Positions 1 to 58,552 are shown, counted from the stretch's first letter. The stretch is DNA of 64,000 nucleotides from a virus (IMGVR_UViG_3300009314_000709:1-64000); one strand, 5' to 3'. Program-made: numbers and translations. Notes: a model not told the origin generated them from the letters alone.

Positions 1-121
1 GGCGGGGGGAGAGGGGTGGTGAGATGAAATGACCTGCCGTCGCCCAGAAAAACTACAGTCAGAGTGGGGCCACAGACGATAACTACACTATGAATTGCAC
101 CCAGAGGAACTCACTTACAGT

Positions 122-1750
122 ATGAGTAGCAAGTACATTATGGTAGTCGGCGGTGTCATCAGCGGCACTGGGAAAGGCATCTCAGCAGCGAGTCTTGGTC
201 TTCTATTGAAAATGCGGGGCAGCGCCGTCCAGGTAGCCAAGTTCGATCCTTACCTCAACTTGAACGCTGGAACCATGAACCCTCGCCAGCATGGCGAGGT
301 GTTTCTTTGTAATGACGGTACGGAAACCGATCTTGATCTAGGGCATTACGAACGCATCACGGGTCTTGAAGTCTCTGCGAAGAACATTTGGACCAGTGGT
401 GTGATGTACAAAGAAATTCTCGACGACGAAGAAGAGGGCAAGTACCTTGGCCAGACAGTACAGATCATTCCACACGTGACAGACAAGATACAAGCTCGGC
501 TGAAGATGCTTGGCGAGGGTGCCGACATAGTGATCGTGGAGATTGGAGGCACGGTGGGAGATTTGGAATCCGGTCCCTATTACGAAGCCATCCGCCAGTT
601 CAAGCAGAAGCAACCAGATGACGTACTGCTTGTTTTGGTTGCTCCGATTCTTTGGGTGCCCACAATCAAGGAACACAAAACGAAGCCGCTTCAGAATGCT
701 GTCAAGGCAATGCAGTCGCATGGATTGCAGACTGATATGTTATTGTGCCGTGTTGATGGTATAGTTCCTGATCGAACCTTGGACAAGGTTGCGAACTTGA
801 CGAACATACCACGTGAGGCCGTCTTCCAGGCCCCAGATGTTTCCTCGATATATCAAGTGCCTATTGAGTTCTACAATCGCCACATTGATGACTTCGTAGC
901 AGATCGTTTTCATCTGCGCCGCAATGGTGTGAGGATACACAAATACCGTGACCTGGTTGAGAAGTACATACACGCCGAAGAGTTACCAGAGATTGAAATT
1001 GGAATCGTTGGTAAGTACGAGAACTGCGACGAAGCATACCTCTCCCTGAAAGAGGCGATCTATCATGCTGGTGTATCCAACAGTGCCAGAGTAAAGGTCA
1101 GATGGATATCTGCCGAAGCGTTGGAGAGCGCCAAAGACTTCCGTGGTGTTTGGCATCATTTCAATGGCCTGTCTGGAGCGATTGTTCCTGGAGGGTTTGA
1201 TAGTCGTGGCGTAGAGGGAAAGATCAGGGCTGCGGGATATTGTCGAGAGAAAAGGATTCCATATTTAGGGATTTGCCTTGGGCTGCAATGTGCGGTAATT
1301 GAGTTTGCTCGGCATATTGGCATGGAGAACGCCACAAGCACTGAATTTGATCCCAAGACGAATACGCCTGTTATTCACTTCGTTCCCGGCCAAGAGGCTA
1401 TTAGGAAGAAGTGTGGGACAATGCGACTGGGGGCATACGACTGCATCGTAGAGAAAGACACGCTCGCTCGTACATTATACAAAAAGCGGTTGATCTTTGA
1501 GCGGCACCGTCACAGATACGAAGTAAACGATGAGTACGTTGAGAAGTATGCCGAGAACGGGTTCTATGTATCAGGAAGGCATCCTGATACTAACTTAATA
1601 GAGATCATGGAACTGGACCAAGAGGGGCATCCATTCTTCATAGGAACACAGGCTCACCCGGAGTTTCGATCACGACTTGGTTCACCGAATCCTCTGTTTG
1701 ATGGATTGATTGCTGCTGCTATGGAATTCAGCGAGAAAGATGATAGATAG
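122..1750 (+). CDS. pyrG: CTP synthase
   Basis: GGVISGTGKG P-loop, HGEVF..DG.ETDLDLGHYER, GATase LGICLG and QAHPEF motifs; ATG at 122 preferred over TTG 95. Confidence 0.97.
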   Translation: MSSKYIMVVGGVISGTGKGISAASLGLLLKMRGSAVQVAKFDPYLNLNAGTMNPRQHGEVFLCNDGTETDLDLGHYERITGLEVSAKNIWTSGVMYKEILDDEEEGKYLGQTVQIIPHVTDKIQARLKMLGEGADIVIVEIGGTVGDLESGPYYEAIRQFKQKQPDDVLLVLVAPILWVPTIKEHKTKPLQNAVKAMQSHGLQTDMLLCRVDGIVPDRTLDKVANLTNIPREAVFQAPDVSSIYQVPIEFYNRHIDDFVADRFHLRRNGVRIHKYRDLVEKYIHAEELPEIEIGIVGKYENCDEAYLSLKEAIYHAGVSNSARVKVRWISAEALESAKDFRGVWHHFNGLSGAIVPGGFDSRGVEGKIRAAGYCREKRIPYLGICLGLQCAVIEFARHIGMENATSTEFDPKTNTPVIHFVPGQEAIRKKCGTMRLGAYDCIVEKDTLARTLYKKRLIFERHRHRYEVNDEYVEKYAENGFYVSGRHPDTNLIEIMELDQEGHPFFIGTQAHPEFRSRLGSPNPLFDGLIAAAMEFSEKDDR

Positions 1751-2134: not shown

Positions 2135-2203
2135 TTGACTGGTTTTATCAGTAAATCTATAACGGCGGCTCGATGATTTGTTACCTTGCCACGAGGATTT
2201 CTC

Positions 2204-4501
2204 ATGTGTGGAATTGTAGGGTTTATTGGTGAGCCCTTAGACAGCCGATTGGCGTTTGAGTTGTCAACAAACCTATTGGCGAGAACTGAAATACGGGGCG
2301 ATGATGCTTCGGGGTATTGGGCTTGTGACACGTTGCCAGAAGATCAAGGGTGTGTTTACTGGACGAAGGCCCCCAAGAAAGCCAGCGACTTCGTTAAGGG
2401 CGACGGCTGGCAGGCGATCAAAGATATTAAGCTGAATCTTCTTATCTCACATTGTCGCCGATCTACAGTCCGAGGCAGCGAAAACAAGAACCGCAACAAC
2501 CATCCATTCCTAAGTAGCGATTCTCGCACAGCGCTTGTTCATAATGGTAACGTCCCCGAGTTTGATTCGCTTCGGAGCGACTATGATGTAATGAGCGAAT
2601 GCGACAGCGAGATTCTACTTCGTATGATGGAGCGTGGTCCTCATTACAATCTTGAATACCTGCGGCAACAACTTGGACGCCTCAAAGGCAGTGGCGAGAA
2701 AGCTATCAAAGATTGCCCGGATGAAGAAGTCCCATTGTGGAGCCACAGTCTTCTCGGACTCGTCGACATCTTTGCTCGAATCAATTACGGCGCAATGGCC
2801 GTAGCGATTGGAGAACGGTGGGAAGACGGAACACGAGCCCTCTGGTTATTCCGTGATCGAGAAAGGCCGCTACAAGTCATAGACATGCGGGAATCTCTCA
2901 ATCAGGTCTACGTTGTTTCCGAAAAGCGAATTTGGCGAGAAGCGGTCGAAGCGACACCAAACGCCAGACGGTACGTCAAAGGCTCGACTCCGATCATTGA
3001 ATTTCCGCCGATGTACATCTGGCTGCTGACCTACCGGGAGGGCGAGAAAAACAAGTTTGGCGTGAGGAAGTTCCGCATCAATCGCCAGCGCCGTCACGAT
3101 ACAACATTCGAGGAAGAGCGCCCAGACGATTTGGTTCAGCCAACAAACCGGGGGGCGATTCGTGTTGTCACAAATCTCAAGCACGACCACGAACAAGATC
3201 ACACAAATGGCGTCACGGCGCACGAACCGACCGCCTCCGACAGCACACCAGTAAAGAAGAGCGACGACAAAGGAAAGAAAACCGAGTCAAAAAAAAACGT
3301 AAGCGCCCCCTCACCGCCCACCCACACTTCTTCACCGGAGCCCGACGAGACCTCAAACCAGACGTATGAAGACTGGCCGGGGGAAGTCTACCCTTTTGTG
3401 AGCCGCTACCTGACTACCTTCTTTGAAATGCCGACCGCCGAAAGAAGCCGTCCGGCCATGAGTCAGGTGGTACAATTGCGAACCACCGCATATTCGCCCA
3501 GTCTTAGCATCCCTGATCCAAGCGACAAAGCGATTGTACTAGGCAATCCGCACTACCGAGACTGGGCTAATGCGCTCAAAGCCAAACATGGCTGGCATGA
3601 TCGAGTCCGCCAATCAGAGGGCGTAGCCAAGCGAGACATAATATCTCTCTGGGTCATCCTTAGAGAAGCCCGAGAAGCCTGGCAAGCTATGCCTAGTGAT
3701 GAGCCGGTCTCCGCCTTCACGAACAACCTAGCTCCCACAGATTGCTTCGAGCACATGATACGGTTGATCGACGCTCGTACCAAAGTGTCGCATAGACCGT
3801 GGCCAACGGGAATGACCGCTGGGCTAACGGATACCTTCAAAACACTGCAAGAGCAACTGACGGAAGCAGCGGTACGTCTTCGGGATCAGGATGAAGAATT
3901 TCCCGACATGACGAACTACGAGGCAGAACTTACGAAGGATCATTACCACCGGTGGGCCAAAGTTCTCCAGGCACGACATCAATGGAACGATGCGGCCTGG
4001 AGAAACGGTATCGATGTTAAGTTGTTCTTCTTACTCTCCGAAGTACACAACTCCTGGAGAGGGCATATGCGAACCGTGTATGCCGACGTTCCATTTGATG
4101 CCGATGATCCACCGAGCATGGCCTGTGAAGCTATTGGGGCTGCGAATGCTCAAGTACGAGTGCGGAAGCCGCCCTTTGAAGACGACGAGGAAGAAGACGA
4201 AGGCGAGAACGGAGATCACGAAGTAGAGCGTCCCCTAGGCGTGATAAGGACCGACAGAATGACTGTACACGAATCAGAACCAGGCCAACTCGACATGGAT
4301 AAAGTGGAAGAGTTCAATGACTCTCTCCACAAGTTACGAGAAATTCTTGCCGGGATTGATACCGGCGTAAACGAGTTGATCCGAGAAAAGACAATCAACA
4401 ACACCGAATTGCACGAGATTGTCGACAGCCTCAAGGATGCTGTGCAAGACATGGAAGGACTGAACATCATCGCCGAGAGCTACACGAAACAAGCAACTTA
4501 A
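2204..4501 (+). CDS. class II glutamine amidotransferase (Ntn) domain fused to a long unknown C-terminal region
   Basis: MCGIVG start gives N-terminal Cys; RGDDASG, SHCR, NNHPF, VHNG, SECDSE motifs. Confidence 0.88.
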   Translation: MCGIVGFIGEPLDSRLAFELSTNLLARTEIRGDDASGYWACDTLPEDQGCVYWTKAPKKASDFVKGDGWQAIKDIKLNLLISHCRRSTVRGSENKNRNNHPFLSSDSRTALVHNGNVPEFDSLRSDYDVMSECDSEILLRMMERGPHYNLEYLRQQLGRLKGSGEKAIKDCPDEEVPLWSHSLLGLVDIFARINYGAMAVAIGERWEDGTRALWLFRDRERPLQVIDMRESLNQVYVVSEKRIWREAVEATPNARRYVKGSTPIIEFPPMYIWLLTYREGEKNKFGVRKFRINRQRRHDTTFEEERPDDLVQPTNRGAIRVVTNLKHDHEQDHTNGVTAHEPTASDSTPVKKSDDKGKKTESKKNVSAPSPPTHTSSPEPDETSNQTYEDWPGEVYPFVSRYLTTFFEMPTAERSRPAMSQVVQLRTTAYSPSLSIPDPSDKAIVLGNPHYRDWANALKAKHGWHDRVRQSEGVAKRDIISLWVILREAREAWQAMPSDEPVSAFTNNLAPTDCFEHMIRLIDARTKVSHRPWPTGMTAGLTDTFKTLQEQLTEAAVRLRDQDEEFPDMTNYEAELTKDHYHRWAKVLQARHQWNDAAWRNGIDVKLFFLLSEVHNSWRGHMRTVYADVPFDADDPPSMACEAIGAANAQVRVRKPPFEDDEEEDEGENGDHEVERPLGVIRTDRMTVHESEPGQLDMDKVEEFNDSLHKLREILAGIDTGVNELIREKTINNTELHEIVDSLKDAVQDMEGLNIIAESYTKQAT

Positions 4502-39354: not shown

Positions 39355-40947
39355 TCAGAGAGTCGAAACAGCCGAGGCCGCTTCATCAAAGGGTTGCCAC
39401 CATTTGCCTTTTTTGCGTTGGCGGAAGAGTCTAACCGATTCATACCAAACGGTTTTCGGTGATTCGAGGCCCCATCGCCAATCGGGTACAAGAGGCAGCA
39501 TCAGAAATGTTTGTTTGCCCATACCCCCAGCTAGATGGGCCACAGACGTGTCGACTGTTACAATCAAGTCCATCTTCGAGATTAGATTAGCGGTTGAGTT
39601 GTAATCGGTAATCATGCCGCTCAAGTCCACGATTGGCATCTGTTGAGCGTTCGCTCCAAGGTCCACTTCTTCGCCTTCCCAAGTTCGCTTGCGGTTGTCT
39701 TTCTGCAAACTAAACACTTGGTATTTCTCGCTGTTAAGTTGGCAGAAAGGCCAGAATTGAGTTGCGTGGCACGACCGTTTTGAGTCGTTATGATGGATGG
39801 AGCTACCCGCCCAAACGATCCCGATTTTGAACTTGTCTTCATACGGCTTCCAGATATGCGGTTCTAGTTCTGGCGCAAACTCAGTGTCGGGCTTAACGTA
39901 AGGATCGCAAACCATGTCTTTCTCGTCATACAGTTTGAGGACACGAGGTAGGCTAGATATTGATTGGTGGTAGTCAATGTCGTAATCACAACATATGTCT
40001 TCGCTAGTAAAGGTTCCATATGTTGAAAAGGTTACAGCGGGATCAACCACCTCATCAACGAACCCTGTGCGGCGTAAAATCGTGGTCAAATCGCCCCGCT
40101 CGAAACTGGAATTCCACTCCATTACCACGTACGCTCCTTGCTCTCGTAGGTGTCGTGCAAACCGAATGAATTGAATGGCGTCCCCTGCGCCTTGTTCGGC
40201 ATACAGATAGACCACCTTATCTTCGGACAATGGCTGTCCTGTCCAAAGCGGCCAACCAGATAACTGGTCTCGGGTTTTGCTGAAGTCTGGGAACTGCGCC
40301 CATCGTGATTCATATTCCTCCCAGCCTTCTTTGTACTGCTTTGCCAACAGTAGCGCAGAAGCTCGGTTCCAGCAGGCAGGTGTAAACTCCGGCATTAGCG
40401 AGTGCACCTCTTTGAAACATTGAGCAGCTTTTTCTGGCTCCAATTCATCCAAGAGCACATTGCCGTAATTGAACTTCAACATCGGCACGTACTTTGAAGG
40501 AATCTGCATCGCTAGCGACAATGTTTTTCGAGCATCATCATAGCGGCCAGCACCTTGATGCTCCAAGGCGATATTACTACGAATCACAACTGATTCTGGA
40601 TTGAGTTGTAGAGCTTGAAGAAGAGAAGCATGTGCTCTACTCCGCTCTCCCATCGCTCCGCAAACCACGCCCATTGTGTTCCAATATTCCCAGTTATCAG
40701 GGCGCTCATCTACAAGTGTTTTCAGAATCTCATCCGCTTCTTTGTTCTTTCCCTGTTTGTGTAAACTCAATGCCAACAAGTGGTCTGCTTGGTCTGAACC
40801 AGTGATTATTCGCTTCAACTGACGAAGCAATTTTTCGGCATAAGCGAAGTCTCCTTCTTGTAGACATTCCCCCGCTTTTGCAAGAGTTTGATTCGATAGT
40901 TTTTTGATTTCCGCCACGCTGACGGTTGAAGGTTGTCTGGTTATCAT
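39355..40947 (-). CDS. TPR-repeat plus GT9-like glycosyltransferase
   Basis: TPRs, EGWEEYE.RW, AEQGAGD.IQF.RF, IGIVWAGS, DLIVTVDTSVAHLAGGMGK, PDWRW. Confidence 0.9.
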   Translation of the reverse strand: MITRQPSTVSVAEIKKLSNQTLAKAGECLQEGDFAYAEKLLRQLKRIITGSDQADHLLALSLHKQGKNKEADEILKTLVDERPDNWEYWNTMGVVCGAMGERSRAHASLLQALQLNPESVVIRSNIALEHQGAGRYDDARKTLSLAMQIPSKYVPMLKFNYGNVLLDELEPEKAAQCFKEVHSLMPEFTPACWNRASALLLAKQYKEGWEEYESRWAQFPDFSKTRDQLSGWPLWTGQPLSEDKVVYLYAEQGAGDAIQFIRFARHLREQGAYVVMEWNSSFERGDLTTILRRTGFVDEVVDPAVTFSTYGTFTSEDICCDYDIDYHQSISSLPRVLKLYDEKDMVCDPYVKPDTEFAPELEPHIWKPYEDKFKIGIVWAGSSIHHNDSKRSCHATQFWPFCQLNSEKYQVFSLQKDNRKRTWEGEEVDLGANAQQMPIVDLSGMITDYNSTANLISKMDLIVTVDTSVAHLAGGMGKQTFLMLPLVPDWRWGLESPKTVWYESVRLFRQRKKGKWWQPFDEAASAVSTL

Positions 40948-41016
40948 ATTTCGGCTAAGCCCTACTAAATAAGAAGGAGTGTCACTGTCACCGTAATATA
41001 GACAAAAGGAGCCAAA

Positions 41017-41217
41017 ATGGGATGTGGATGCAGACGTAATCAACGTCAACGACGTAACGTACAAATGGCTCGACCCAGAACGACGACTAGCAACCAGCGA
41101 GCTAATATCGCCGCAAGATCAGTATTTCAAGGTGCTGTTTCTGCCGCTACAAAGCGACAGCGAAAAAGGATTGAGAAACTGCGACGAGAGACTATTCAAT
41201 CAAAGTTCGGAAAGTGA
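41017..41217 (+). CDS. small basic protein starting MGCGC
   Basis: AAGGAG SD, TAAATA upstream. Confidence 0.65.
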   Translation: MGCGCRRNQRQRRNVQMARPRTTTSNQRANIAARSVFQGAVSAATKRQRKRIEKLRRETIQSKFGK

Positions 41218-44926: not shown

Positions 44927-45760
44927 CTAAACCTGATTGTCCAAGAAGTCATTGGACACCCGAATACGTTTCAAGGATGTGAAAAACTGAGACACAACGT
45001 AACTTCGATGCAAGCCCTTCCAGACATAGATAAGGGCAGCCAAAATACCGCCTGTGGTAGTGCCCTGTTGCACGAGAATGTACACGATGCAAATCTCAGC
45101 AATGATGATGCAAATGTGTGTTATCGCCCACGTCAGCGCATCATAATCTGACTGCCGTATCAGTCTTCTTTTGATGAGCGAATAGCCTTCCTCCACTGTT
45201 TCCAGATCGTGCAGCGCAATAGCCGAACTCACGTCTTCCCGGTGCACTTGCTCTTGATGCTGTTGAGTCATTGCCCAACATGCTATCACGTACCCCGTGA
45301 AGCAACAGAAAGCAATCAGCGAGGCAAAAACAATCGTAACATCCCCGACGATAAACCAAAGGAAGCCAATGCTCACAAAGATGTCAATAATGGCGCACGC
45401 CGCCGATGGTAAGACGAATTCATAGAAATCAGCATACCTTCGTACCAATTCTTGACGACTAATGATTTTCGGAACGGCAACACGAAGTGCGACTAGTTTT
45501 CGAGCCGTCTCACCGGCCACCCTCGCCCAGACATCACCAAAAGCTCTGGTGTCGAATAACCTTCTCCCAGTCCCGATCAGCAAACCAACGATACAGATGC
45601 CAATATATCCCGCAAAGGCATACCACGACCCATCTAATGCCATATCGAGCGCCTTGCCCAGCAAGTAGGGAAGGCAAGCGAACATGACGAATTCCACCAA
45701 CAGCGTCGTGTACGTCGCTATGATGCGGAACTTATTGTCGAGAAACATTCGCCACAACAT
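44927..45760 (-). CDS. ABC transporter six-transmembrane-domain protein (no ATPase domain)
   Basis: PYLLG.ALD, GRRLFDTR.F, DFYE..LP motifs; six TMs. Confidence 0.72.
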   Translation of the reverse strand: MLWRMFLDNKFRIIATYTTLLVEFVMFACLPYLLGKALDMALDGSWYAFAGYIGICIVGLLIGTGRRLFDTRAFGDVWARVAGETARKLVALRVAVPKIISRQELVRRYADFYEFVLPSAACAIIDIFVSIGFLWFIVGDVTIVFASLIAFCCFTGYVIACWAMTQQHQEQVHREDVSSAIALHDLETVEEGYSLIKRRLIRQSDYDALTWAITHICIIIAEICIVYILVQQGTTTGGILAALIYVWKGLHRSYVVSQFFTSLKRIRVSNDFLDNQV

Positions 45761-45782
45761 ACAACCCTCTCACACACAAAAA

Positions 45783-46079
45783 ACACGTCAGTCTCGTACC
45801 CAGGATTCTGTTTAATGCGGCCATTTATCTGGTGGCCTCGACCCGGCTATCATAGCCCTGTTCACCGGCTAAGCCTGTTTGAGTTGCACCCTCTGGGGTC
45901 CAAGCGGATGTATGCCAGGCACATTTACCTTGGCGTGATGTCAAGCGTTTCGCTGTTTGCACTCACGCAAGCCGTGAATGGCCGATCATACACCCTCCCC
46001 CATTAGAACAGCGGTGTCCTGAAGTTCCTCACATCCTTACTGGTAGGTAAGGGTAGTGCGACCGCTCGGACTGACGTAT
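45783..46079 (-). ncRNA. rnpB: RNase P RNA (bacterial type-A-like catalytic domain, divergent S-domain, no P18)
   Basis: P1 AUACGUCAGUC/GACUGACGUGU; P2 GCGGUCG/UGGCCGC; CR-I GAGGAACUUCAGGAC; CR-IV AGAUAAAUG; CR-V ACAGAAUCCUGGGUA; P5 CACC/GGUG-CAA; P6 CUGUUC/GAACAG; L15 GGU. Confidence 0.9.
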
Positions 46080-46091
46080 CTGGTTTACAAT

Positions 46092-46307
46092 TCACCCTAC
46101 GTGTGAAAGGTGTGTGATGGTGCCATCTTCGACGACGACATTGAGCCTATTCGTACAGTAGTCGGCGGTTCCAACGTAGCATTTGCCGTCTTCTTGTAAG
46201 ATGCGTAGAGTGAAGCCCTTTGATTCTACCAGATGTTTAGCTTGATCGATTTCTAATCCGATAATGCTCTTACTGAGATATCGCTTTGCGTTCAACCGAA
46301 CCCCCAA
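46092..46307 (-). CDS. peptidase inhibitor I78/I13-like small protein
   Basis: IIGL..DQA and TADYCTNRLNVVVEDG.I...HVG. Confidence 0.7.
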   Translation of the reverse strand: MGVRLNAKRYLSKSIIGLEIDQAKHLVESKGFTLRILQEDGKCYVGTADYCTNRLNVVVEDGTITHLSHVG

Positions 46308-47218
46308 CGTTTTCTGTTCTCTCGTATGCCTGCCTCAATATCGTATTTAGGCACGAACCCGAGATGCTTCTTCGCCAAAGCCATATCACATTCAGTGTGA
46401 TCTTGGTATTTCTCAGGTTCTGGATTAGGTATATAGCATGGACCGCCCCAACTCCATTTGCTATACAAGTCAGCCAGAATATCATGGATTCGATTGAATG
46501 TTGTCGCTACCCCCGATCCGCAATTCACAACGCATGATCGATCAGCTTCCATCGCCATCAAATTCGCTCGTACCACATCATCTACGAAAATCCAGTCTCG
46601 CTTCTGTTCTCCATGCTCAAATAGTTTGACCGGCCGCCAGACGATCCTCTTGCCCACCTGATGAATCATACTGGCTCGTTTGCCTTTATGATGCTCGCCT
46701 GGGCCATAAACGTTGCAATAGCGAAGTCCTATGAAAGTGACGTGTGGATACCTGACAGATAAGTGACGAGTGACTTTTTCCAGTTCGAGCTTTGATCGAG
46801 CATAGGCATTTAGCGGATCAACCGGCCCGTCCTCTCGCTGCGGCGCTGGTGTTTTGCCATATACGGCCGTCGAAGAAGCATAGACGATCTTTTGACAACC
46901 ATTTGCTATCGCCCACTCAAAGACGTTAATAGAACTATGCACGTTCTGCCACAACATTTCCCTCTCGTCTTTGCAGGTGGTATCGTTATTCGCCGCCTGG
47001 TGGAAGAGCACATCGAGAGATTGGTGTTCATCTCGGAGAAGAGACGACATGCGGTGAAAATGCACGCCGCCGACGCCATGAAAGAACAACGCACATTCTG
47101 GAGGTAATTTGTTTTCGCAAGGGGAACCGGTAGCCAACACGAAATAACCCAGTTCGAGTAATCTCTTAACTAGGTTCGAGCCAACGAATCCCGTTCCACC
47201 TGTCACCAGCATAGCCAT
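46292..47218 (-). CDS. hldD: ADP-L-glycero-D-manno-heptose 6-epimerase-like NAD-dependent epimerase
   Basis: VTGGTGFVGS, FHQAA..DTT, YASS.AVYG, PLNAYARSK, GLRY.NVYGPGE.HKG, GEQKRD. Confidence 0.85.
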   Translation of the reverse strand: MAMLVTGGTGFVGSNLVKRLLELGYFVLATGSPCENKLPPECALFFHGVGGVHFHRMSSLLRDEHQSLDVLFHQAANNDTTCKDEREMLWQNVHSSINVFEWAIANGCQKIVYASSTAVYGKTPAPQREDGPVDPLNAYARSKLELEKVTRHLSVRYPHVTFIGLRYCNVYGPGEHHKGKRASMIHQVGKRIVWRPVKLFEHGEQKRDWIFVDDVVRANLMAMEADRSCVVNCGSGVATTFNRIHDILADLYSKWSWGGPCYIPNPEPEKYQDHTECDMALAKKHLGFVPKYDIEAGIRENRKRWGFG

Positions 47219-47246
47219 TGTAAGCCTCTTGTTTGACTCACCCCAC

Positions 47247-48005
47247 CTAGCTTTCGTCGTCGTCGTCGTCTTCTTCTTCTTCTTCTTCTTCTTCGTCTTG
47301 GATTCTCTGCCGTCGCTCCCGCTCCTGCTCCTGCTCCTGCCATGACTTGTAGGCTGTCAGACGAGGATGCTCCCAGTCTTCAATTCCTAGCGAGTCGGCG
47401 AAAAATCGAGATGCTTCGATTATGTCACCGGCTGTAATTCTGTGCCCGCCATAGCGACTCTCCTTCGTGATTACATTGTAGCCACGTCTCAGTAGCGATA
47501 TCTTCATAGGTAGATATCGCTCATACCAGTCAAAACACCCATCGTCGAAGTTGTGAACCAACATGATTGGCGTATGACTCTTGGGCGCTTGAGGCACCTT
47601 GATTGGCTCAAGGATGGCCCCAGACATCGACACTGCGCCGCCGAATGGTTTTGATGCATGGGTTGCCATCTGGAGGGCCATAACACCTCCAGCCGAGAAG
47701 CCAACAACAGCGATCTTTTTGTGCGACAACCGATACGCCTTGCTTATGCGTCCTAGTAGCTTCATGCAAGCGGACCTGGCTACAGGAAGCCCCTGCACCG
47801 CTTCCTTTTGATCTGTAGCAGAGAAGGGTTGTGGGTACCAAGCAAGCCCATAAGGCTGGATGGCTACCAAGACCGTATTTGGCAACTGGAAATCCTCGGC
47901 CACCTGCATCATCAACCGAGCACTGTTATATCGACCCGCCAAAGCCAGTAACGCATAACGAACCGGCCCATTTTTTGGTTCTTTGACAATCCACTCTTCG
48001 ATCAT
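47247..48005 (-). CDS. phospholipase/carboxylesterase (alpha/beta hydrolase)
   Basis: VGFSAGGVMA nucleophile elbow, H..DD, GGHRI; acidic tail. Confidence 0.85.
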   Translation of the reverse strand: MIEEWIVKEPKNGPVRYALLALAGRYNSARLMMQVAEDFQLPNTVLVAIQPYGLAWYPQPFSATDQKEAVQGLPVARSACMKLLGRISKAYRLSHKKIAVVGFSAGGVMALQMATHASKPFGGAVSMSGAILEPIKVPQAPKSHTPIMLVHNFDDGCFDWYERYLPMKISLLRRGYNVITKESRYGGHRITAGDIIEASRFFADSLGIEDWEHPRLTAYKSWQEQEQERERRQRIQDEEEEEEEEDDDDDES

Positions 48006-48026
48006 AGGTCTAATTCCTATTCAAGT

Positions 48027-48074
48027 AAAAACAGGTCACACCACCAGGCTGGAGACCCTGGTGGTGTGAACCTG
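48027..48074 (-). terminator. intrinsic terminator
   Basis: CAGGT(T)CACACCACCAGG/CCTGGTGGTGTGACCTG followed by U5 on minus strand. Confidence 0.8.
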
Positions 48075-48520
48075 ATAAGGTCTTAGGGCCGCCACCTGGC
48101 TCATCACCTGGTGACTTGTAGTTTTTATGATCGCCCTTTGGCTAGCCATGTCGTTTTACCAGAACGACACCGGGTTGTGTCATATGCTCCACTTGGCCTA
48201 GCCGTAATGCCTCAGCATGGGCGTAGGCGACCTTTCAACTTCACATCGACTGAAACTTCCCTTTGATTGTTTACACCGCTCTGGGAGCGAACGTGTCTTT
48301 GGCCCGGAGGCCACACTAATGCAAACGTACAAAAGTTCCATTTCACCGACGCTACGTGATAAGGCAAGTGATGCAACACAACAAAAAGACGACCAGGACT
48401 ACCAAACCCAGACAGTTGCTTTTCACCGCACAGTGCTTATTCGCTTCGGGGCTGTCCTCCCCTACCATGCGGCTTCCGGCGCATCAGGCCGCAGCCTGAC
48501 AGAAACACCCAAGACCTTAT
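48075..48520 (-). ncRNA. unidentified ~445-nt structured RNA with paired ends
   Basis: AUAAGGUCUUGGG pairs with CCCUAAGACCUUAU; many internal hairpins; terminator immediately after. Confidence 0.5.
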
Positions 48521-49440
48521 TTCCATTGATCCAGGTTGGGGGCGTAATCCTTGGATGCTTCGTGTCCAATCCTCCAAATCACATTTTGCTCTACGTAGCG
48601 GCCAATCACGTCCATGAACTTGTCCGTCTCCCCCACGGCGGCATCGTCAATCGTGCGCCGTAATTCGTCGGGATCGATGTCTTCTTCCCAAATCTTTTCG
48701 TGAACCCGATCTTCCATCACCACCTTCGTGGCCACTGTTGCGAGATCGTACATCAGTTCGACCAATGAAGGTCGAGCTAACCAGAAGTTGCCCAAGGAGC
48801 GATATTCAACACCATACTTCTCGCACGCCCGGTGCGTCCCTGCTTTCCCATACAACCTACGTCGATCTTTCGATGTCGGGTCTTTGTCGAGCAGCAATGA
48901 CGGGATACCCAGGAAGAGATCACACATTCGGACAACCCAAACACGATCCCAGCAAATCTGGAAGATCAATTCTTCGTACTCCTCCTCGCCCATCGCCTGT
49001 GGTTTCTCAAAATCCACACCGCCGTCGTAGCCGATGTGAATGTGCCCGCCACCCGACCGAAATGTGTTGCGGCAGTCCGGTGGAACCACCACCATCATTT
49101 CATAGGCACAAAACTCTGGATCGCAACCGAACAAACGAGCATCTCTGTGCTCGCACTCTCCGTCAGGGTAATAGGCCGACGCTTGGGGTACTAACCGGAG
49201 CGGCCGGACCAGTTGAGCGTATCGTTCAATGCACTCTCGGAAGCTACCAACGACAGCTTCTCTACTGGCTTCCGGGCGAATGTTGCACTCGGCTAGCACG
49301 TTGTCGTAAAACGCCAAATGATCGTCTCCCATGTCGTAACGGTCATCTTTTGTGCCGAAAACGACGCCAATGGCGCTTTTCAAACGACCTTGTTCATCCT
49401 GCAACATGAACTCCGGGTCGGAGCCGAATGTAATTGGCAT
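48517..49440 (-). CDS. phiEco32-like COOH-NH2 ligase type 2
   Basis: FGSDPEF, DNVLAE.NI.P, FGCDPEF.AY, RSGGGHIH, RR.LYGKAG..R, YGVEYRSL.NFW. Confidence 0.9.
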   Translation of the reverse strand: MPITFGSDPEFMLQDEQGRLKSAIGVVFGTKDDRYDMGDDHLAFYDNVLAECNIRPEASREAVVGSFRECIERYAQLVRPLRLVPQASAYYPDGECEHRDARLFGCDPEFCAYEMMVVVPPDCRNTFRSGGGHIHIGYDGGVDFEKPQAMGEEEYEELIFQICWDRVWVVRMCDLFLGIPSLLLDKDPTSKDRRRLYGKAGTHRACEKYGVEYRSLGNFWLARPSLVELMYDLATVATKVVMEDRVHEKIWEEDIDPDELRRTIDDAAVGETDKFMDVIGRYVEQNVIWRIGHEASKDYAPNLDQWK

Positions 49441-49448
49441 GACGAGTC

Positions 49449-50312
49449 TCACTTCTTCTTATCGGTTTTGTCGGATTTGGGCTTATCCAAGTCACGGTGC
49501 CAGTGTTGTACGTGACTCATACTGGCACCACTTGTGAACGAACAGATACCGGTGTGGTTATGCATACTACTCGTAGTGATAGCAGGATAGTTCTTCTTTG
49601 GGTTTTTGAAAAAGATTTTGGCGTATCCGAACTTCAAAATCTTGTCTATTCCGTCCTTGGCCTGCGATAGTTGCTTCTTATCATTAGACTGGTAGGGGCT
49701 TATCTTGCCTGCTATGATCTTCTTGATTGTTTCGGCAAAGTCCTCGCCCTTCGTGTGACAAAAGCCAACACGGAGCAGCAGGGTATACAAGGATAGCATT
49801 GGCGGCGACAGTATCCAGCGATTGGAACTTTCGATGACCCACACACCACTCTTGTACCGCTTGGGCGGATTCTCTACTTGGCGAGCCTTGCTTCGCACCA
49901 GCCGCAGCTTCTTCTCAAATTGATGGAGAAAATCCATAACGTTTGGAATTTTGTCACTGAAACCACTGTCCGAAGCATTGCCCAACGCCATACGGGTTCG
50001 TCGCATGTAGAGAGGCTCACAAGTCTGTGGGTTGTAGGTGAACCCATAGATGCTTACCGACTTCTCGTGGTACGTCGCCTGGATGGCATCTTGCAGAAAA
50101 TCCTTGCAATACACCATCGGACAACATTGTTTCCAATCACGAGAGATGAAGCAATACTCCAGGCCGGTTGAATAGACTTGGGACAAACCATATTTCTTGG
50201 TAAGCCACTCAATTTTAACCGGCCGGGACGCTTTTGCGTCGTCCTTCTTCTTTGTGTCCTTCTTCATGGTAAACAACGCCATCTTTCTGTGTTCTCCAGT
50301 TGACGGGATCAT
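49449..50312 (-). CDS. hypothetical protein co-transcribed with the COOH-NH2 ligase
   Basis: CKDFLQD, IYGF.Y, SLYTLLLR motifs. Confidence 0.7.
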   Translation of the reverse strand: MIPSTGEHRKMALFTMKKDTKKKDDAKASRPVKIEWLTKKYGLSQVYSTGLEYCFISRDWKQCCPMVYCKDFLQDAIQATYHEKSVSIYGFTYNPQTCEPLYMRRTRMALGNASDSGFSDKIPNVMDFLHQFEKKLRLVRSKARQVENPPKRYKSGVWVIESSNRWILSPPMLSLYTLLLRVGFCHTKGEDFAETIKKIIAGKISPYQSNDKKQLSQAKDGIDKILKFGYAKIFFKNPKKNYPAITTSSMHNHTGICSFTSGASMSHVQHWHRDLDKPKSDKTDKKK

Positions 50313-54775: not shown

Positions 54776-54809
54776 CGTGCCTCCATAGTATGTAGCCACT
54801 CTGCCAACC

Positions 54810-54847
54810 AAAAACCCGCCCTTCCGAAATTCGGAAGGGCGGGTTTA
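54810..54847 (-). terminator. intrinsic terminator
   Basis: AAAAACCCGCCCTTCCGAA/TTCGGAAGGGCGGGTTT. Confidence 0.8.
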
Positions 54848-54878
54848 CGCCAAAAGGAGAGATTACAGGTAACTCGCC

Positions 54879-56619: not shown

Positions 56620-56702
56620 TCTCCTCCAAAGTTTTTTCATTTTTTGCGCAAGTTTTGTTGCATCGTTGTCGATTATTCATATGGAGAACTTCAAGGAGGT
56701 AC

Positions 56703-57986
56703 ATGCTAACGGCGAATAGAATACACGAGTTCCTGGACAAATACACCATCGTTGAAGGTTTGCCAATCATCTTAGACCCTGAGCGATCCAATGGAGTTTG
56801 GGTCGTGGATATGATTACTGGCAAGAAATACCTTGATTGCACTAGTTTGTTTGGTACTGCGCCAGTCGGTTTCAATCATCACATCATGTTCCGGGAATCA
56901 CAAGAGTGCTTTGTGGGCGTGCCGCATCTCAAGATACCACACGGAGAAGTCTATACGTGTTGGTATGCAGATTTCATTGAAGCCTTCCTCAAAAAAGCCC
57001 TGCCGGATTACTTCAAGTACGTCGTTTGCTGCCCGAGCACGGACGAGGCCATAGACGCCAGCCTTAAAATTGCTTTCGACTGGAAGGCTAAGAAGCTAGG
57101 GATGGGGGATGGCTTTGCCCAATCATTCGATGTGATCCATTTCGCAGAGTCCTACCACGGTTCCTCTGTCTATGCTCTAAGTGCTAGTGATACCACTGTT
57201 CGGAGCAATCACTGCTACCCTCGTTTCAATTGGACGATGGTTCCCAATCCTAAAGTCAGGTTTCCCAGCACATCTCAAGTTGAAACCAACGAAACACATG
57301 CCCTGATTGCTATGAAAAAGGCGATTCACAAAGGGAACGTTGCCGCAATTCTCATGGAGCCGCTGCAAGACAAAGGGGGGAACAATCTATTTAGAGAAGG
57401 GTTCTTGAAGCAAGTACGAGACCTAGCAAGCGAATCCAACACACTACTAATCTTCAATGAATGTAATGTGGGATTCGGGCCATCTGGCAAATGGTGGTGC
57501 CACCAAACATTTGATATACGACCTGACTTAATGGTTTTCGGCGGCCGGACACAAGTCGCAGGTGTGGTGGCGACAGAAAAACTCGACGAAGTAAAGAGAC
57601 ATTGTTTCAATCACGAGCGCAATCGCCTTGAAACAAAGTGGGGGGGCGACTTGGCGGATATGGTGAGATGCGAAATCTACATGCAAATCATCGAAAAAGA
57701 AGACCTGCTCAAGCAGGCGAAAAAGATTGGTGAATACATGCTGGCGAAGCTAAGGGAACTCGAAGCAGTGTCAGCTAAGATTAGCAACACACGAGGTATC
57801 GGTACGTTGACTGCCTTCGATCTACCCAATTCTATGTCGAGAAACTTGGTCCTCTCATACCTGCAAAAACACATGTTAATTAGGGGCTGCGGTTTGCAGT
57901 CCATTTGCTTCCGACCGCCACTAATTTTTGGCAAGGAAGAAGCTGATCTTACTATGGATTATATCAGAAAGGCATTGATACTATGA
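56703..57986 (+). CDS. L-lysine 6-transaminase-like class III aminotransferase lacking PLP-site residues
   Basis: G..YLD, GFNH, A.KIAFDWK, P.F.W....P, ILMEPLQ..GG, TWGG-like; NECNVG and FGGRTQV replace DEVQTG and FGKKTQV. Confidence 0.8.
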   Translation: MLTANRIHEFLDKYTIVEGLPIILDPERSNGVWVVDMITGKKYLDCTSLFGTAPVGFNHHIMFRESQECFVGVPHLKIPHGEVYTCWYADFIEAFLKKALPDYFKYVVCCPSTDEAIDASLKIAFDWKAKKLGMGDGFAQSFDVIHFAESYHGSSVYALSASDTTVRSNHCYPRFNWTMVPNPKVRFPSTSQVETNETHALIAMKKAIHKGNVAAILMEPLQDKGGNNLFREGFLKQVRDLASESNTLLIFNECNVGFGPSGKWWCHQTFDIRPDLMVFGGRTQVAGVVATEKLDEVKRHCFNHERNRLETKWGGDLADMVRCEIYMQIIEKEDLLKQAKKIGEYMLAKLRELEAVSAKISNTRGIGTLTAFDLPNSMSRNLVLSYLQKHMLIRGCGLQSICFRPPLIFGKEEADLTMDYIRKALIL

Positions 57987-58552
57987 GTTATTCCGAATGG
58001 GCAAAGAAGTTTGAGGAAGGGAAGAAGCGACCTAAACCCCACAAAACCGAGGAAGAAAAAAAGCAACTCAAACCTCACAAAATAGACAAAATAGTTTGGG
58101 AACCGATTCCCCAATCGGCAAGTGACAGGTTCGATAGAAAGTGGCCCAGCTTAGTGAATCCGTACATACCGGAAGTAGATAGACCAAGTTCTCAAGAGAA
58201 AGTTCATTTGCAGCAGAAAGCAGAGCAAGCCAAAAAACAGGCAGAATTACTTGAAGATGCTGTAATGGTTTACCGACTTTCTAGGGAAGGTCAAAATCCT
58301 CCCACAGATGTTGACCAGACCGCAGAGATGTATGACATTAGCAGGACAGACTCTGTTGAGTTGTTGCATCTCATCAGAAACATCATGGGAGATGAAGAAT
58401 ATCGTCGAGTGATCGCTAAGGTGTTCGATACAGAATCACCTCTGAAAACCGTTGAAATCCCACCGATCTATGACATACCCGATGATGTTAAAAATGCGTA
58501 TCGGGAACGAGGAATAAATCTAAGAAAGAGGTTTTCCGACGAAACTCCCTAG
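57983..58552 (+). CDS. hypothetical protein
   Basis: starts MSYSEWAKKFEE; ATGA overlap. Confidence 0.65.
   Translation: MSYSEWAKKFEEGKKRPKPHKTEEEKKQLKPHKIDKIVWEPIPQSASDRFDRKWPSLVNPYIPEVDRPSSQEKVHLQQKAEQAKKQAELLEDAVMVYRLSREGQNPPTDVDQTAEMYDISRTDSVELLHLIRNIMGDEEYRRVIAKVFDTESPLKTVEIPPIYDIPDDVKNAYRERGINLRKRFSDETP

What the first reader, a model, noticed from the sequence alone, without database searches (positions are those of the whole stretch)
48027..48520. Second large structured RNA with paired 5'/3' ends enclosing a tiny hydrophobic ORF
Seen: a ~510-bp gap in an otherwise gene-packed region. On the minus strand its first 13 nt (48508-48520) pair with 48075-48088, and a strong terminator follows at once. 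Internal stems include UCAGGC/GCCUGA, whose UGCGGC loop region could kiss GCCGCA just downstream. Others are CGCUC/GAGCG, GGUCGCC/GGCGAUC, GGCUAG(G)CCA/UGGCUAGCC, UGUCGUU/AACGACA and GUCACC/GGUGGC. Inside lies a 38-codon ORF (48468-48352, MVGEDSPEANKHCAVKSNCLGLVVLVVFLLCCITCLIT) with one TM-like stretch. Known: long-range 5'-3' pairing around a small membrane peptide is typical of type I toxin mRNAs, and large end-paired ncRNAs also occur in phages. Inference: this is either a novel large ncRNA or a structurally silenced toxin/holin-like mRNA. It shares a strand and neighbourhood with the RNase P RNA, so it might be a substrate.
Basis: partly seen in the sequence, partly recalled or inferred. 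Interest (0 to 1): 0.7.

Follow-up and report, generated by a model that had tools for sequence, protein, structure and literature searches.

The report
New large structured RNA in huge phages
The gap holds a previously undescribed, roughly 450-base non-coding RNA with an elaborate fold that is conserved in a small group of very large phages, and the tiny hydrophobic reading frame inside it is not a conserved gene.

Summary
Window 48075-48520 (minus strand) is a conserved, highly structured non-coding RNA, followed by its own terminator hairpin (48032-48074).

- **Fold:** it folds far better than shuffles (z -5.5 to -6.1), on the minus strand only. Two flanking coding stretches and another 500-nt gap give z -0.02 to -1.3.
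- **Known families:** there is no Rfam 15 match and no tRNA or tmRNA call.
- **Homologues:** related copies lie directly after the same ligase gene in 9 of 80 metagenome loci, in long (about 435-455 nt) and short (about 315 nt) forms.
- **Covariation:** on an 8-sequence alignment, 87% of cells pair against 37-42% in slid controls. 60 of 108 pairs changed on both sides against 13-23.
- **The 38-codon ORF:** start, frame and length are not kept in any of the 4 long-form homologues. Its hydrophobic stretch is the most conserved RNA block.
- **Expression:** two metatranscriptome runs each give one contig in 5 kb, starting at 48520 and 48517, the predicted 5' end.
- **Dimer hint:** a 10-nt hairpin is self-complementary in 9 of 10 members, and adjacent loop bases covary. 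This hints at a symmetric dimer, as reported for OLE and GOLLD.

Function is unknown. The toxin-mRNA reading is rejected. The suggested link to RNase P remains untested.

The parts
48508..48520 (-). P1, 5' strand of the closing helix. It contains the stop codon of the upstream ligase gene (48517-48519).
   Evidence: It pairs with 48075-48088. The helix is kept with different sequences in L010, L011, L008 and L020. The RNA-run contigs start at 48520 and 48517.
48485..48498 (-). P2 hairpin (CAGGC-UGCG-GCCUG)
   Evidence: The stem differs in sequence but is kept in L010, L011 and L009. L008 has a shorter hairpin in its place.
48418..48480 (-). P3 branched domain: helices 48480-48478/48420-48418, 48473-48468/48430-48425, 48462-48459/48451-48448 and 48444-48442/48437-48435. 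The hairpin loop GGACAG lies at 48457-48452.
   Evidence: Helices 1, 2, 3 and 5 have 12 of 16 pairs changed on both sides.
48396..48417 (-). Most conserved block (AACUGUCUGGGUUUGGUAGUCC). CUGUCU (48415-48410) can pair with the GGACAG loop as a pseudoknot.
   Evidence: Five of the 6 pseudoknot pairs are invariant in 8 of 8 sequences and the sixth is A-U or G-U, so 100% pair but nothing covaries. The same two motifs are seen in L021 and L025.
48386..48402 (-). 5' strands of the long-range helices P4 (48402-48398) and P5 (48395-48386)
   Evidence: They pair with 48122-48118 and 48137-48128. Helices 6 and 7 have 9 of 15 pairs changed on both sides, across long and short forms.
48176..48380 (-). 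Central variable domain, largely missing in the short forms (L020, L022, L024).
   Evidence: Alignments A2 and A5. Helices 8-18 rest on the five long-form sequences only, and some fit the window's own sequence poorly.
48151..48168 (-). P8 hairpin (GUCGUU...AACGAC)
   Evidence: Six of 6 pairs changed on both sides among 10 sequences.
48139..48148 (-). Self-complementary 10-mer UGGCUAGCCA (3-bp stem and a palindromic 4-nt loop), a candidate symmetric contact between two RNA molecules.
   Evidence: The 10-mer is fully self-complementary in 9 of 10 members, counting G-U in L024. The adjacent loop bases covary (UA in 7, CG in 3).
48091..48127 (-). Conserved 3' block: A-rich junction, 3' strand of P4 (48122-48118), CAAGUC, and the P9 hairpin 48115-48091 whose apex carries the invariant GUGAUGA (48107-48101).
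   Evidence: Invariant columns in A5, A6 and A8. The P9 stem covaries (5 of 7 pairs). Model R1 built on this region finds all 10 members.
48075..48088 (-). P1, 3' strand
48027..48074 (-). Intrinsic terminator hairpin directly abutting P1, followed by a U run.
   Evidence: One search gives the stem as 48069-48036 with 13 pairs. The extension by CAGGU/ACCUG is read. Matching long hairpins follow P1 in L010, L011 and L008, L021 and L025. The loop sequence is the same in the window and L010 although the stems differ.
48352..48468 (-). It is not a conserved coding sequence.
48354..48520 (.). Stretch covered by the only contigs from two RNA libraries within 45000-50000.
   Evidence: X2 covers 48355-48520 and X3 covers 48354-48517, both with no differing letters. 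Contigs do not give the strand.

Best explanation
This is a gene for a stable, non-coding, highly structured RNA of about 446 nt (48520-48075, minus strand) in a fragment of a very large myovirus-like phage. It belongs to a family that no library I could search describes.

**How it is made.** Its 5' strand overlaps the stop codon of the upstream amidoligase-like gene. Its 3' end is set by its own long terminator hairpin.

**What it looks like.**
- A closing helix (P1) encloses a branched 5' domain.
- A loop in that domain can form a pseudoknot with the most conserved block.
- Two long-range helices (P4, P5) clamp a variable central domain.
- A 3' domain carries invariant unpaired bases.

**Shown:** the RNA is conserved as a structure rather than as a protein; it sits at a fixed place in the operon; and RNA libraries hold contigs that begin at its predicted 5' end.

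**Inferred:**
- It acts as a folded particle in trans rather than as a leader.
- Two copies join through the self-complementary hairpin at 48148-48139, as the symmetric loops of OLE and GOLLD RNAs do.
- It is released from the operon transcript by processing, or made from an unrecognised internal promoter.

What it does for the phage is not known.
For: **Structure beyond chance, one strand only.** z is -6.13 and -5.5 without the terminator, against -0.8 on the other strand. Homologues give -4.6 and -4.1. Controls give -0.45, -1.29, -0.02 and -1.32.

**Homologues at the same position.**
- nhmmer finds L010 (E 5e-31), L011, L009 and L008 over query positions 23-499.
- A profile adds L020, L021, L022 and L024.
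- Model R1 adds L025. In all, the window plus 9 of 80 metagenome ligase loci match at E below 1e-8.

**Covariation.**
- A5 (8 sequences, 108 pairs): 87.3% of cells pair against 37-42% when the partners are slid. 60 pairs changed on both sides against 13-23. 0 of 500 shuffles reach the observed values.
- A8 (10 sequences, 18 pairs): 94.4% paired, 15 pairs changed on both sides.
- P1 is kept with different sequences.

**Not coding.** No ORF is conserved on either strand.

**RNA evidence.** In 5 kb, each of two metatranscriptome runs gives one contig, 48355-48520 and 48354-48517.

**Dimer hint.** The 10-mer reads UGGCUAGCCA, UGACUAGUCA, GGAACGUUCC, GGUACGUGCC or UGGAUAUCCA. Adjacent loop columns 31-32 read UA in 7 and CG in 3. 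Columns 30-33 read CG in 5, AU in 4 and other in 1. PMC12286853 (passages read) uses this same pattern in OLE L9.3 and GOLLD L21a as support for base pairs between chains seen by cryo-EM.

**Downstream gene not constant.** In L021 a different gene follows. In L025 the only ORF of at least 60 aa downstream, within the 367 nt before the contig ends, is on the other strand.
Against: - **Function and oligomer state are untested.** The palindrome argument rests on about three independent changes, and L020 breaks it (UCGU loop).
- **A 4-nt loop is small for a kissing contact.** An extended duplex, or a palindrome that acts at the DNA level, is also possible.
- **The pseudoknot is invariant,** so it has no covariation support.
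- **The family is small.** Only 10 members are known and three (L009, L010, L011) are close relatives. Shuffle controls overstate significance for related sequences.
- **Ascertainment.** All homologues were found through the ligase gene, so the link to it is partly built into the search.
- **RNA contigs are limited evidence.** They cover only the first 165 nt, do not give the strand, come from one study, and do not show that the whole 446 nt accumulates.
- **No promoter or processing signal was identified**.
- **The layout also fits a cis-acting element.** A terminator directly before the next gene, with no convincing promoter after it, would suit one. The only promoter-like match overlaps the start codon.
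Confidence: 0.55

Rival explanations
1. It is a cis-acting regulatory RNA inside the operon: a very large riboswitch, or a put/EAR-like antitermination element (kind recalled, not tested). It decides whether RNA polymerase passes the terminator at 48032-48074 into the hydrolase and epimerase genes.
For: - The structure ends directly at a strong terminator, about 25 nt before the hydrolase start.
- Where the RNA is absent, ligase and hydrolase are close neighbours, so the inserted terminator must be passed for downstream expression.
- The only promoter-like site after the terminator overlaps the start codon.
- Many invariant unpaired bases and a pseudoknot would suit a ligand pocket.
- The operon encodes enzymes that act on small molecules.
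- Terminated leaders can accumulate, which would fit.
Against: - By eye I found no alternative (antiterminator) pairing shared by the homologues. A 6-nt match in L010 is absent in L011 and the window (sequences).
- The terminators are 17-18 bp long and abut P1, leaving little room for competition.
- At 315-455 nt with a variable central domain, it is far larger than known aptamers.
- The hydrolase does not follow in 2 of 10 members.
- Covariation of the palindromic loop is not explained by this reading.
Confidence: 0.2
2. The RNA is a processed product or a partner of the phage's own RNase P-like RNA. It is cut out of the operon transcript at P1, or works together with that ribozyme.
For: - An RNase P class A-like RNA lies at 45781-46077 on the same strand (46.8 bits, E 2.5e-11, with the P1-P4 and ACAGAA core aligned).
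- Its homologues lie 1-2 kb downstream of the structured RNA in L010 and L011 as well.
- The RNA contigs begin exactly at the 5' end of P1, while the adjacent ligase mRNA gives no contig there. That would fit a processed 5' end.
Against: - There is no tRNA-like end: ARAGORN finds nothing, and by eye there is no T-loop or CCA after P1.
- The RNase P-like RNA was not found in the 622 nt available after the epimerase in L008.
- Nearness of two RNA genes in 3 related contigs may simply be inherited gene order.
- No complement of the invariant P9 loop occurs in the RNase P-like RNAs.
Confidence: 0.12
3. It is an mRNA for the 38-residue membrane peptide (a type I toxin or holin-like protein), kept silent by 5'-3' pairing.
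For: The ORF exists, with a GGAAG four bases before the AUG and a hydrophobic C-terminal half. The stretch is present in RNA libraries.
Against: - The start codon is absent in L010 and L008.
- L011 and L009 start at an aligned UUG but leave the frame and lose the hydrophobic part.
- L010 keeps the hydrophobic frame only from a later GUG.
- Indels of 1 and 2 nt lie inside the ORF.
- The hydrophobic codons coincide with the invariant RNA block and with covarying helix strands.
- P1 does not cover the ORF's ribosome-binding site.
Confidence: 0.03

Closest known systems
Large 'ornate' bacterial and phage RNAs of unknown function: ROOL, GOLLD, OLE (Rfam families; cryo-EM in PMC12286853)
   Same: - It is several hundred nucleotides long and phage-encoded.
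- It has many covariation-supported helices and a pseudoknot.
- It combines a conserved part with a variable part.
- It lies near another small-RNA gene; ROOL and GOLLD lie near tRNA islands according to the passages read.
- A hairpin loop switches between palindromes, the pattern that marks symmetric contacts between chains in OLE and GOLLD.
   Different: There is no sequence or structure match to any of them at E up to 10. It is smaller than GOLLD. It sits inside an enzyme operon directly after an amidoligase-like gene rather than by tRNAs. Oligomer formation is not shown.
Riboswitches and operon-internal antitermination RNAs
   Same: It is a structured RNA between genes of one operon, immediately followed by a terminator, with invariant unpaired bases.
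   Different: It is three to six times larger. No conserved alternative pairing was found. The downstream gene is not constant. No Rfam match.
Type I toxin mRNAs with long-range 5'-3' pairing
   Same: The two ends pair, and a small hydrophobic ORF lies inside in this one genome.
   Different: The ORF is not conserved, whereas the RNA structure is. No antisense partner is evident.
tmRNA
   Same: Paired ends enclose a short ORF, pseudoknots are present, and it is encoded by large phages (the last point is recalled).
   Different: ARAGORN and the Rfam tmRNA models find nothing. There is no tRNA-like acceptor or T arm and no CCA. A terminator abuts the closing helix.

Membership tests
Any Rfam 15 family (including GOLLD, ROOL, OLE, raiA, HEARO, tmRNA, RNase P, group I/II introns, riboswitches) | Match to the family covariance model | tested here: not met
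   - No hit at gathering score in the window.
- At E up to 10 in 47900-48700, the only hit is a human lncRNA model on the other strand (E 2.3).
- No hit inside the homologous RNA regions of 8 loci at E up to 5.
tmRNA / tRNA-like RNA | tRNA-like domain formed by the two ends; tag reading frame | tested here: not met
   ARAGORN finds 0 genes in the window. The ORF is not conserved.
Type I toxin-antitoxin mRNA | Conserved small hydrophobic ORF | tested here: not met
   Start, frame and length are not kept in any of the 4 long-form homologues (0 of 4).
Type I toxin-antitoxin mRNA | Long-range 5'-3' pairing that hides the ribosome-binding site | tested here: not met
   P1 exists but pairs 48520-48508 with 48088-48075. 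The ORF's start region (about 48480-48466) lies in another helix.
Type I toxin-antitoxin mRNA | Antisense RNA partner | not tested
   No strand-resolved RNA data. The plus strand shows no structure signal.
Riboswitch / transcription-attenuating leader | Conserved aptamer followed by a terminator that competes with an alternative pairing | tested here: inconclusive
   The terminator is present in every member whose 3' end I could read clearly. By eye no alternative pairing is shared by the window, L010 and L011.
Riboswitch / transcription-attenuating leader | Constant class of downstream regulated gene | tested here: inconclusive
   The hydrolase follows in 7 of the 9 members whose downstream side is held. 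L021 has a different gene. L025 has no plus-strand ORF of at least 60 aa before its contig ends. L009 is cut off.
Riboswitch / transcription-attenuating leader | Ligand binding | not testable with these tools
   Needs in-line probing or a similar assay.
Large ornate homo-oligomeric RNAs (a kind, not one family) | Length over 300 nt with an extensive covariation-supported structure | tested here: met
   108 pairs, 60 of them changed on both sides.
Large ornate homo-oligomeric RNAs (a kind, not one family) | Loop that stays self-complementary through changes of adjacent bases (a sign of symmetric contact between chains) | tested here: met
   Nine of 10 members. Columns 31-32 read UA in 7 and CG in 3. 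The criterion is as described in PMC12286853.
Large ornate homo-oligomeric RNAs (a kind, not one family) | Physical homo-oligomer | not testable with these tools
   Needs native gels, mass photometry or cryo-EM.

The most novel reading that the evidence does not exclude
This is a new class of large phage RNA that assembles into a symmetric RNA-only (or RNA-led) dimer or higher oligomer through its palindromic hairpin. It is carried by a lineage of very large phages, next to a cut-down phage RNase P RNA that may process it. That would extend the newly recognised world of natural RNA quaternary structures (OLE, ROOL, GOLLD) to an unrelated family with a defined operon context.
Probability: 0.3. 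Interest if true: 0.85.

Novelty: new variant of a known kind. Interest (0 to 1): 0.72.

Why it matters
Large natural RNAs with elaborate, conserved folds are rare. Each class found so far (RNase P, group I and II introns, OLE, GOLLD, ROOL, raiA) has led either to a new function or to a new structural principle.

This one has several useful properties:
- It has about a hundred base pairs with comparative support and an invariant core.
- It comes in long and short natural versions that mark out a minimal core.
- There is evidence that it is present in environmental RNA.
- It carries a sequence signature that predicts self-association, which is directly testable in vitro.
- It sits at a fixed place in a widespread but uncharacterised huge-phage operon (unknown 287-aa protein, amidoligase-like protein, alpha/beta hydrolase, sugar epimerase), close to a phage RNase P-like RNA. 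That offers a handle on what such phages do with their own RNA machinery.

It also corrects a tempting misreading: the 'membrane peptide' is a by-product of a G/U-rich conserved RNA block.

Tried and rejected
**Searches that found nothing**
- blastn of the region against 50,697 phage records gave no match.
- Single-protein searches of IMG/VR with the ligase and the hydrolase found no relatives.
- Tail-sheath relatives were only two short contigs at 53% identity.
- The nearest named relative by CTP synthase (LR756511, 67.5% identity) has neither the RNA nor the ligase.
- A motif scan of viral contigs gave 9 loci, none real.
- A motif scan of genome contigs gave 4 loci, with only the motif itself matching.
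- 45 IMG/VR ligase loci hold no copy by model R1. The best hit has E 0.93.

**Analyses that gave nothing usable**
- The first 167 nt folded alone shows no excess structure on either strand (z -0.28 and +1.04). The signal needs the whole molecule.
- Duplex prediction between the RNA and the RNase P-like RNA gave meaningless whole-length duplexes, and no complement of the P9 loop occurs there.
- An alignment of the 120 nt upstream showed no shared promoter-like motif.

**RNA libraries**
- I draw nothing from the lack of RNA-run contigs over 48075-48353 or over the neighbouring genes, because contigs cannot show absence.
- The shared contig end at 48354/48355 may reflect read length, a processing site at the edge of the variable domain, or assembly. 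I could not tell which.

**Literature and tools**
- Searches for 'COOH-NH2 ligase' with 'phage', for huge phages with structured or noncoding RNA, and for RNase P RNA with huge, jumbo or mega phages found no description of this RNA.
- One script using mafft-qinsi died without output. I used L-INS-i instead.

Full report
**Setting**

The window is the first 64 kb of a 72,432-nt IMG/VR virus contig that CheckV rates 14% complete. It is therefore a fragment of a very large phage.
- It encodes a tail sheath and a baseplate hub.
- It encodes a CTP synthase 67.5% identical to that of a 595-kb uncultured phage, LR756511.
- The finding lies in a minus-strand operon: a 287-aa protein of no known family (49449-50312), a phiEco32-like COOH-NH2 ligase type 2 (48517-49452; PF14395, phrog_3815), the gap, an alpha/beta hydrolase (47247-48005) and an NAD-dependent epimerase/dehydratase (46292-47218).

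**Observation check**

The 511-nt gap, the pairing of 48508-48520 with 48075-48088, the terminator and the 38-codon ORF are all present.

| Stretch | z-score |
|---|---|
| 48020-48525, minus strand | -6.13 |
| 48076-48520 (no terminator), minus strand | -5.5 |
| 48076-48520, plus strand | -0.8 |
| Same stretch without the 3' strand of the closing helix | -3.0 |
| Flanking coding stretch, same length | -0.45 |
| Flanking coding stretch, same length | -1.29 |
| Another 501-nt gap (57987-58487), two strands | -0.02 and -1.32 |

**Known families**

- Rfam 15 gives nothing at gathering score in the window.
- At E up to 10 in the region, the only hit is a chance match to a human lncRNA model on the other strand.
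- ARAGORN finds no tRNA or tmRNA.
- A scan of the whole window at E up to 1 does find an RNase P class A-like RNA at 45781-46077 on the minus strand: 46.8 bits against a gathering score of 100, E 2.5e-11. Its P1-P4 and ACAGAA core align, but most of the specificity domain does not.

**Homologues**

Close relatives were absent from cultured phages and IMG/VR.
- The ligase has many homologues at 50-64% identity in the big protein collection.
- An alignment of 30 of them (A1) retrieved 80 metagenome loci.
- nhmmer with the window's RNA found full-length matches directly after the ligase gene in L010 (E 5e-31), L011, L009 (cut by the contig end) and L008, at about 62% nucleotide identity.
- A profile added shorter or more distant copies in L020, L021, L022 and L024.
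- A covariance model of the 3' domain (R1) found all of these plus L025. That makes the window and 9 of 80 loci at E below 1e-8, with one marginal hit (L028, E 0.92).
- None of 45 IMG/VR ligase loci has a copy, nor does LR756511.
- Motif scans of IMG/VR and of 185,579 species' genomes found no further copy.

On a quick ligase tree of 75 distinct rows, all RNA-bearing loci fall in one well-supported 19-row group. The five long forms make one clade and three short forms another. One origin is not ruled out.

**Gene order**

The order 287-aa protein, ligase, (RNA), hydrolase, epimerase is widely kept. Among the 80 loci, the 287-aa protein is present in 64, the hydrolase in 40 and the epimerase in 32. 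Where the RNA is absent, the ligase and hydrolase matches lie close together.

**Coding or structure?**

No ORF is shared.
- At the window's AUG, L010 reads UUA and L008 has no start.
- L011 and L009 read UUG and open a frame that matches for the first few codons, then departs and gives no hydrophobic segment.
- L010 has the hydrophobic frame only from a later GUG.
- Indels of 1 and 2 nt lie inside the ORF.
- The antisense strand has no shared ORF either.

The structure, by contrast, is conserved.
- RNAalifold on four full-length sequences predicts 86 pairs, 39 of them with compensatory changes.
- On the 8-sequence alignment A5 I tested a structure of 108 pairs in 21 helices, derived from the four complete long-form sequences plus a pseudoknot. 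87.3% of cells pair against 37-42% with partners slid by 1-3 columns. 60 pairs changed on both sides against 13-23. None of 500 shuffles reached any of the five measures.
- The structure was derived from these sequences, which favours it against the slid versions, and three sequences are close relatives. Even so the margin is large.
- On the model-fitted 10-sequence alignment of the 3' domain, 94.4% of cells pair and 15 of 18 pairs changed on both sides.
- MAFFT put the two strands of the closing helix one column out of register, so I checked it by duplex prediction instead. It scores -21.4 (window), -17.0 (L010), -19.3 (L011), -20.9 (L008) and -14.9 (L020) kcal/mol, with different sequences in each.
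- The homologues also fold better than shuffles: L011 z -4.6 and L008 z -4.1.

**Anatomy (window coordinates)**

- P1: 48520-48508 with 48088-48075. The ligase stop codon lies inside its 5' strand here and also in L010, L011 and L008.
- P2: hairpin at 48498-48485.
- P3: a branched domain at 48480-48418, with the hairpin loop GGACAG.
- The most conserved block, 48417-48396. Its CUGUCU can pair with that loop. All 8 sequences pair there but nothing varies, so covariation is silent on it.
- P4 (48402-48398 with 48122-48118) and P5 (48395-48386 with 48137-48128). Both covary across long and short forms.
- A central domain (about 48380-48176) that the short forms largely lack.
- P8: hairpin at 48168-48151.
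- A 10-nt self-complementary hairpin at 48148-48139.
- An A-rich junction and CAAGUC.
- P9: 48115-48091, with the invariant GUGAUGA at its apex.
- A 17-18-bp terminator hairpin follows P1 at once. Its loop is the same in the window and L010 although the stems differ.

The hydrophobic part of the 'peptide' is simply the translation of the G/U-rich conserved block and of the P4 and P5 strands.

**Expression**

One DNA run holds 60% of the sampled words, and two metatranscriptome runs of the same study hold 20% each. Laid on 45000-50000, each RNA run gives exactly one contig, with no differing letters: 48355-48520 (depth 4.3) and 48354-48517 (depth 7.5). The DNA runs give scattered contigs across the 5 kb, one of them bridging 48520.
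- Both RNA contigs begin within 3 nt of the predicted 5' end of P1.
- I read this as evidence that an RNA beginning at the predicted 5' end is present in the environment.
- The strand is inferred from the fit with the structure. Contigs cannot show it.
- I draw nothing from the parts without cover, and the meaning of the shared end at 48354/48355 is open.

**How it may work**

The closed architecture, the invariant unpaired bases and the very stable terminator that abuts P1 point to a stand-alone folded RNA rather than a leader. In addition, a different gene follows in L021, and in L025 the only ORF of at least 60 aa downstream before the contig ends lies on the other strand.

One feature suggests more. 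The 10-mer at 48148-48139 reads as follows:

| Members | 10-mer | Self-complementary? |
|---|---|---|
| Window | UGGCUAGCCA | yes |
| L008, L009, L010, L011 | UGACUAGUCA | yes |
| L022 | GGAACGUUCC | yes |
| L024 | GGUACGUGCC | yes, with two G-U pairs |
| L021, L025 | UGGAUAUCCA | yes |
| L020 | GGAUCGUUCC | two U-U mismatches |

- The two middle, adjacent bases switch between UA (7 members) and CG (3). The next pair out switches between C-G (5) and A-U (4), with one exception.
- Adjacent bases cannot pair within one hairpin.
- Kretsch et al. (PMC12286853, passages read) found this same pattern in OLE L9.3 and GOLLD L21a. They took it as support for the symmetric loop contacts between chains seen in their cryo-EM structures.
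- I therefore propose, as an inference, that this RNA forms a symmetric dimer or higher assembly.
- The number of independent changes is small, about three. A DNA-level palindrome is not excluded.

**Rivals**

A cis-acting element that controls read-through into the hydrolase and epimerase genes remains possible. The terminator position and the lack of a convincing promoter after it favour this. However, by eye I found no alternative pairing shared by the homologues.

The link to the RNase P-like RNA is conserved in the window, L010 and L011.

The toxin-mRNA reading is rejected.

**Novelty**

No library available here describes this RNA. Three literature searches found nothing on it. Supplementary files, which I could not open, might list motifs I did not see.

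It belongs to the general kind of large, ornate phage RNAs of unknown function, but it is unrelated in sequence and structure to the known classes.

Noticed in passing
window 45781-46077 (-); L010 2540-2932; L011 5410-5804: An RNase P class A-like RNA of about 300 nt lies below Rfam's gathering score (46.8 bits against 100). The catalytic core (P1-P4, ACAGAA region) aligns, but most of the specificity domain does not. Homologues sit in the same relative position in two related metagenome contigs. This looks like a phage-encoded, cut-down RNase P RNA.
   Followed up: partly
window 46292-50312 (-) and loci L008-L147: The module of a 287-aa protein of no known family, a phiEco32-like COOH-NH2 ligase, an alpha/beta hydrolase and an NAD-dependent epimerase recurs in many phage contigs, some of 430-530 kb. 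Among 80 metagenome loci, the 287-aa protein is in 64, the hydrolase in 40 and the epimerase in 32. Its substrate is unknown.
   Followed up: partly
window 48032-48074 (-); L010 about 1519-1557: The terminator hairpin after the RNA has the same 12-nt loop region (GGGUCUCCAGCC) in the window and L010, although the stems differ. L011 and L008 have similar loops. The hairpin may be more than a terminator.
   Followed up: no
window 95-1750 (+): A CTP synthase (PyrG) gene is 67.5% identical to one in the 595-kb uncultured phage LR756511 and 40-44% identical to bacterial-type copies in other phage records.
   Followed up: no
window 57987-58487: My crude gene map shows another 501-nt gap. It has no excess RNA structure on either strand (z -0.02 and -1.32). 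I did not work out what it holds.
   Followed up: partly
window 2186-4501, 39355-41064, 44927-45760, 56655-57986: Several sugar- or envelope-related genes lie on the contig: a glutamine amidotransferase-like N-terminus, a TPR protein with a glycosyltransferase family 9 domain, an ABC-transporter membrane domain and an aminotransferase. Together they suggest a large polysaccharide or sugar-modification region.
   Followed up: no
window 54806-54877 (-): A weak RybB-like Rfam match (24.9 bits against 40, E 0.93), most likely chance.
   Followed up: no
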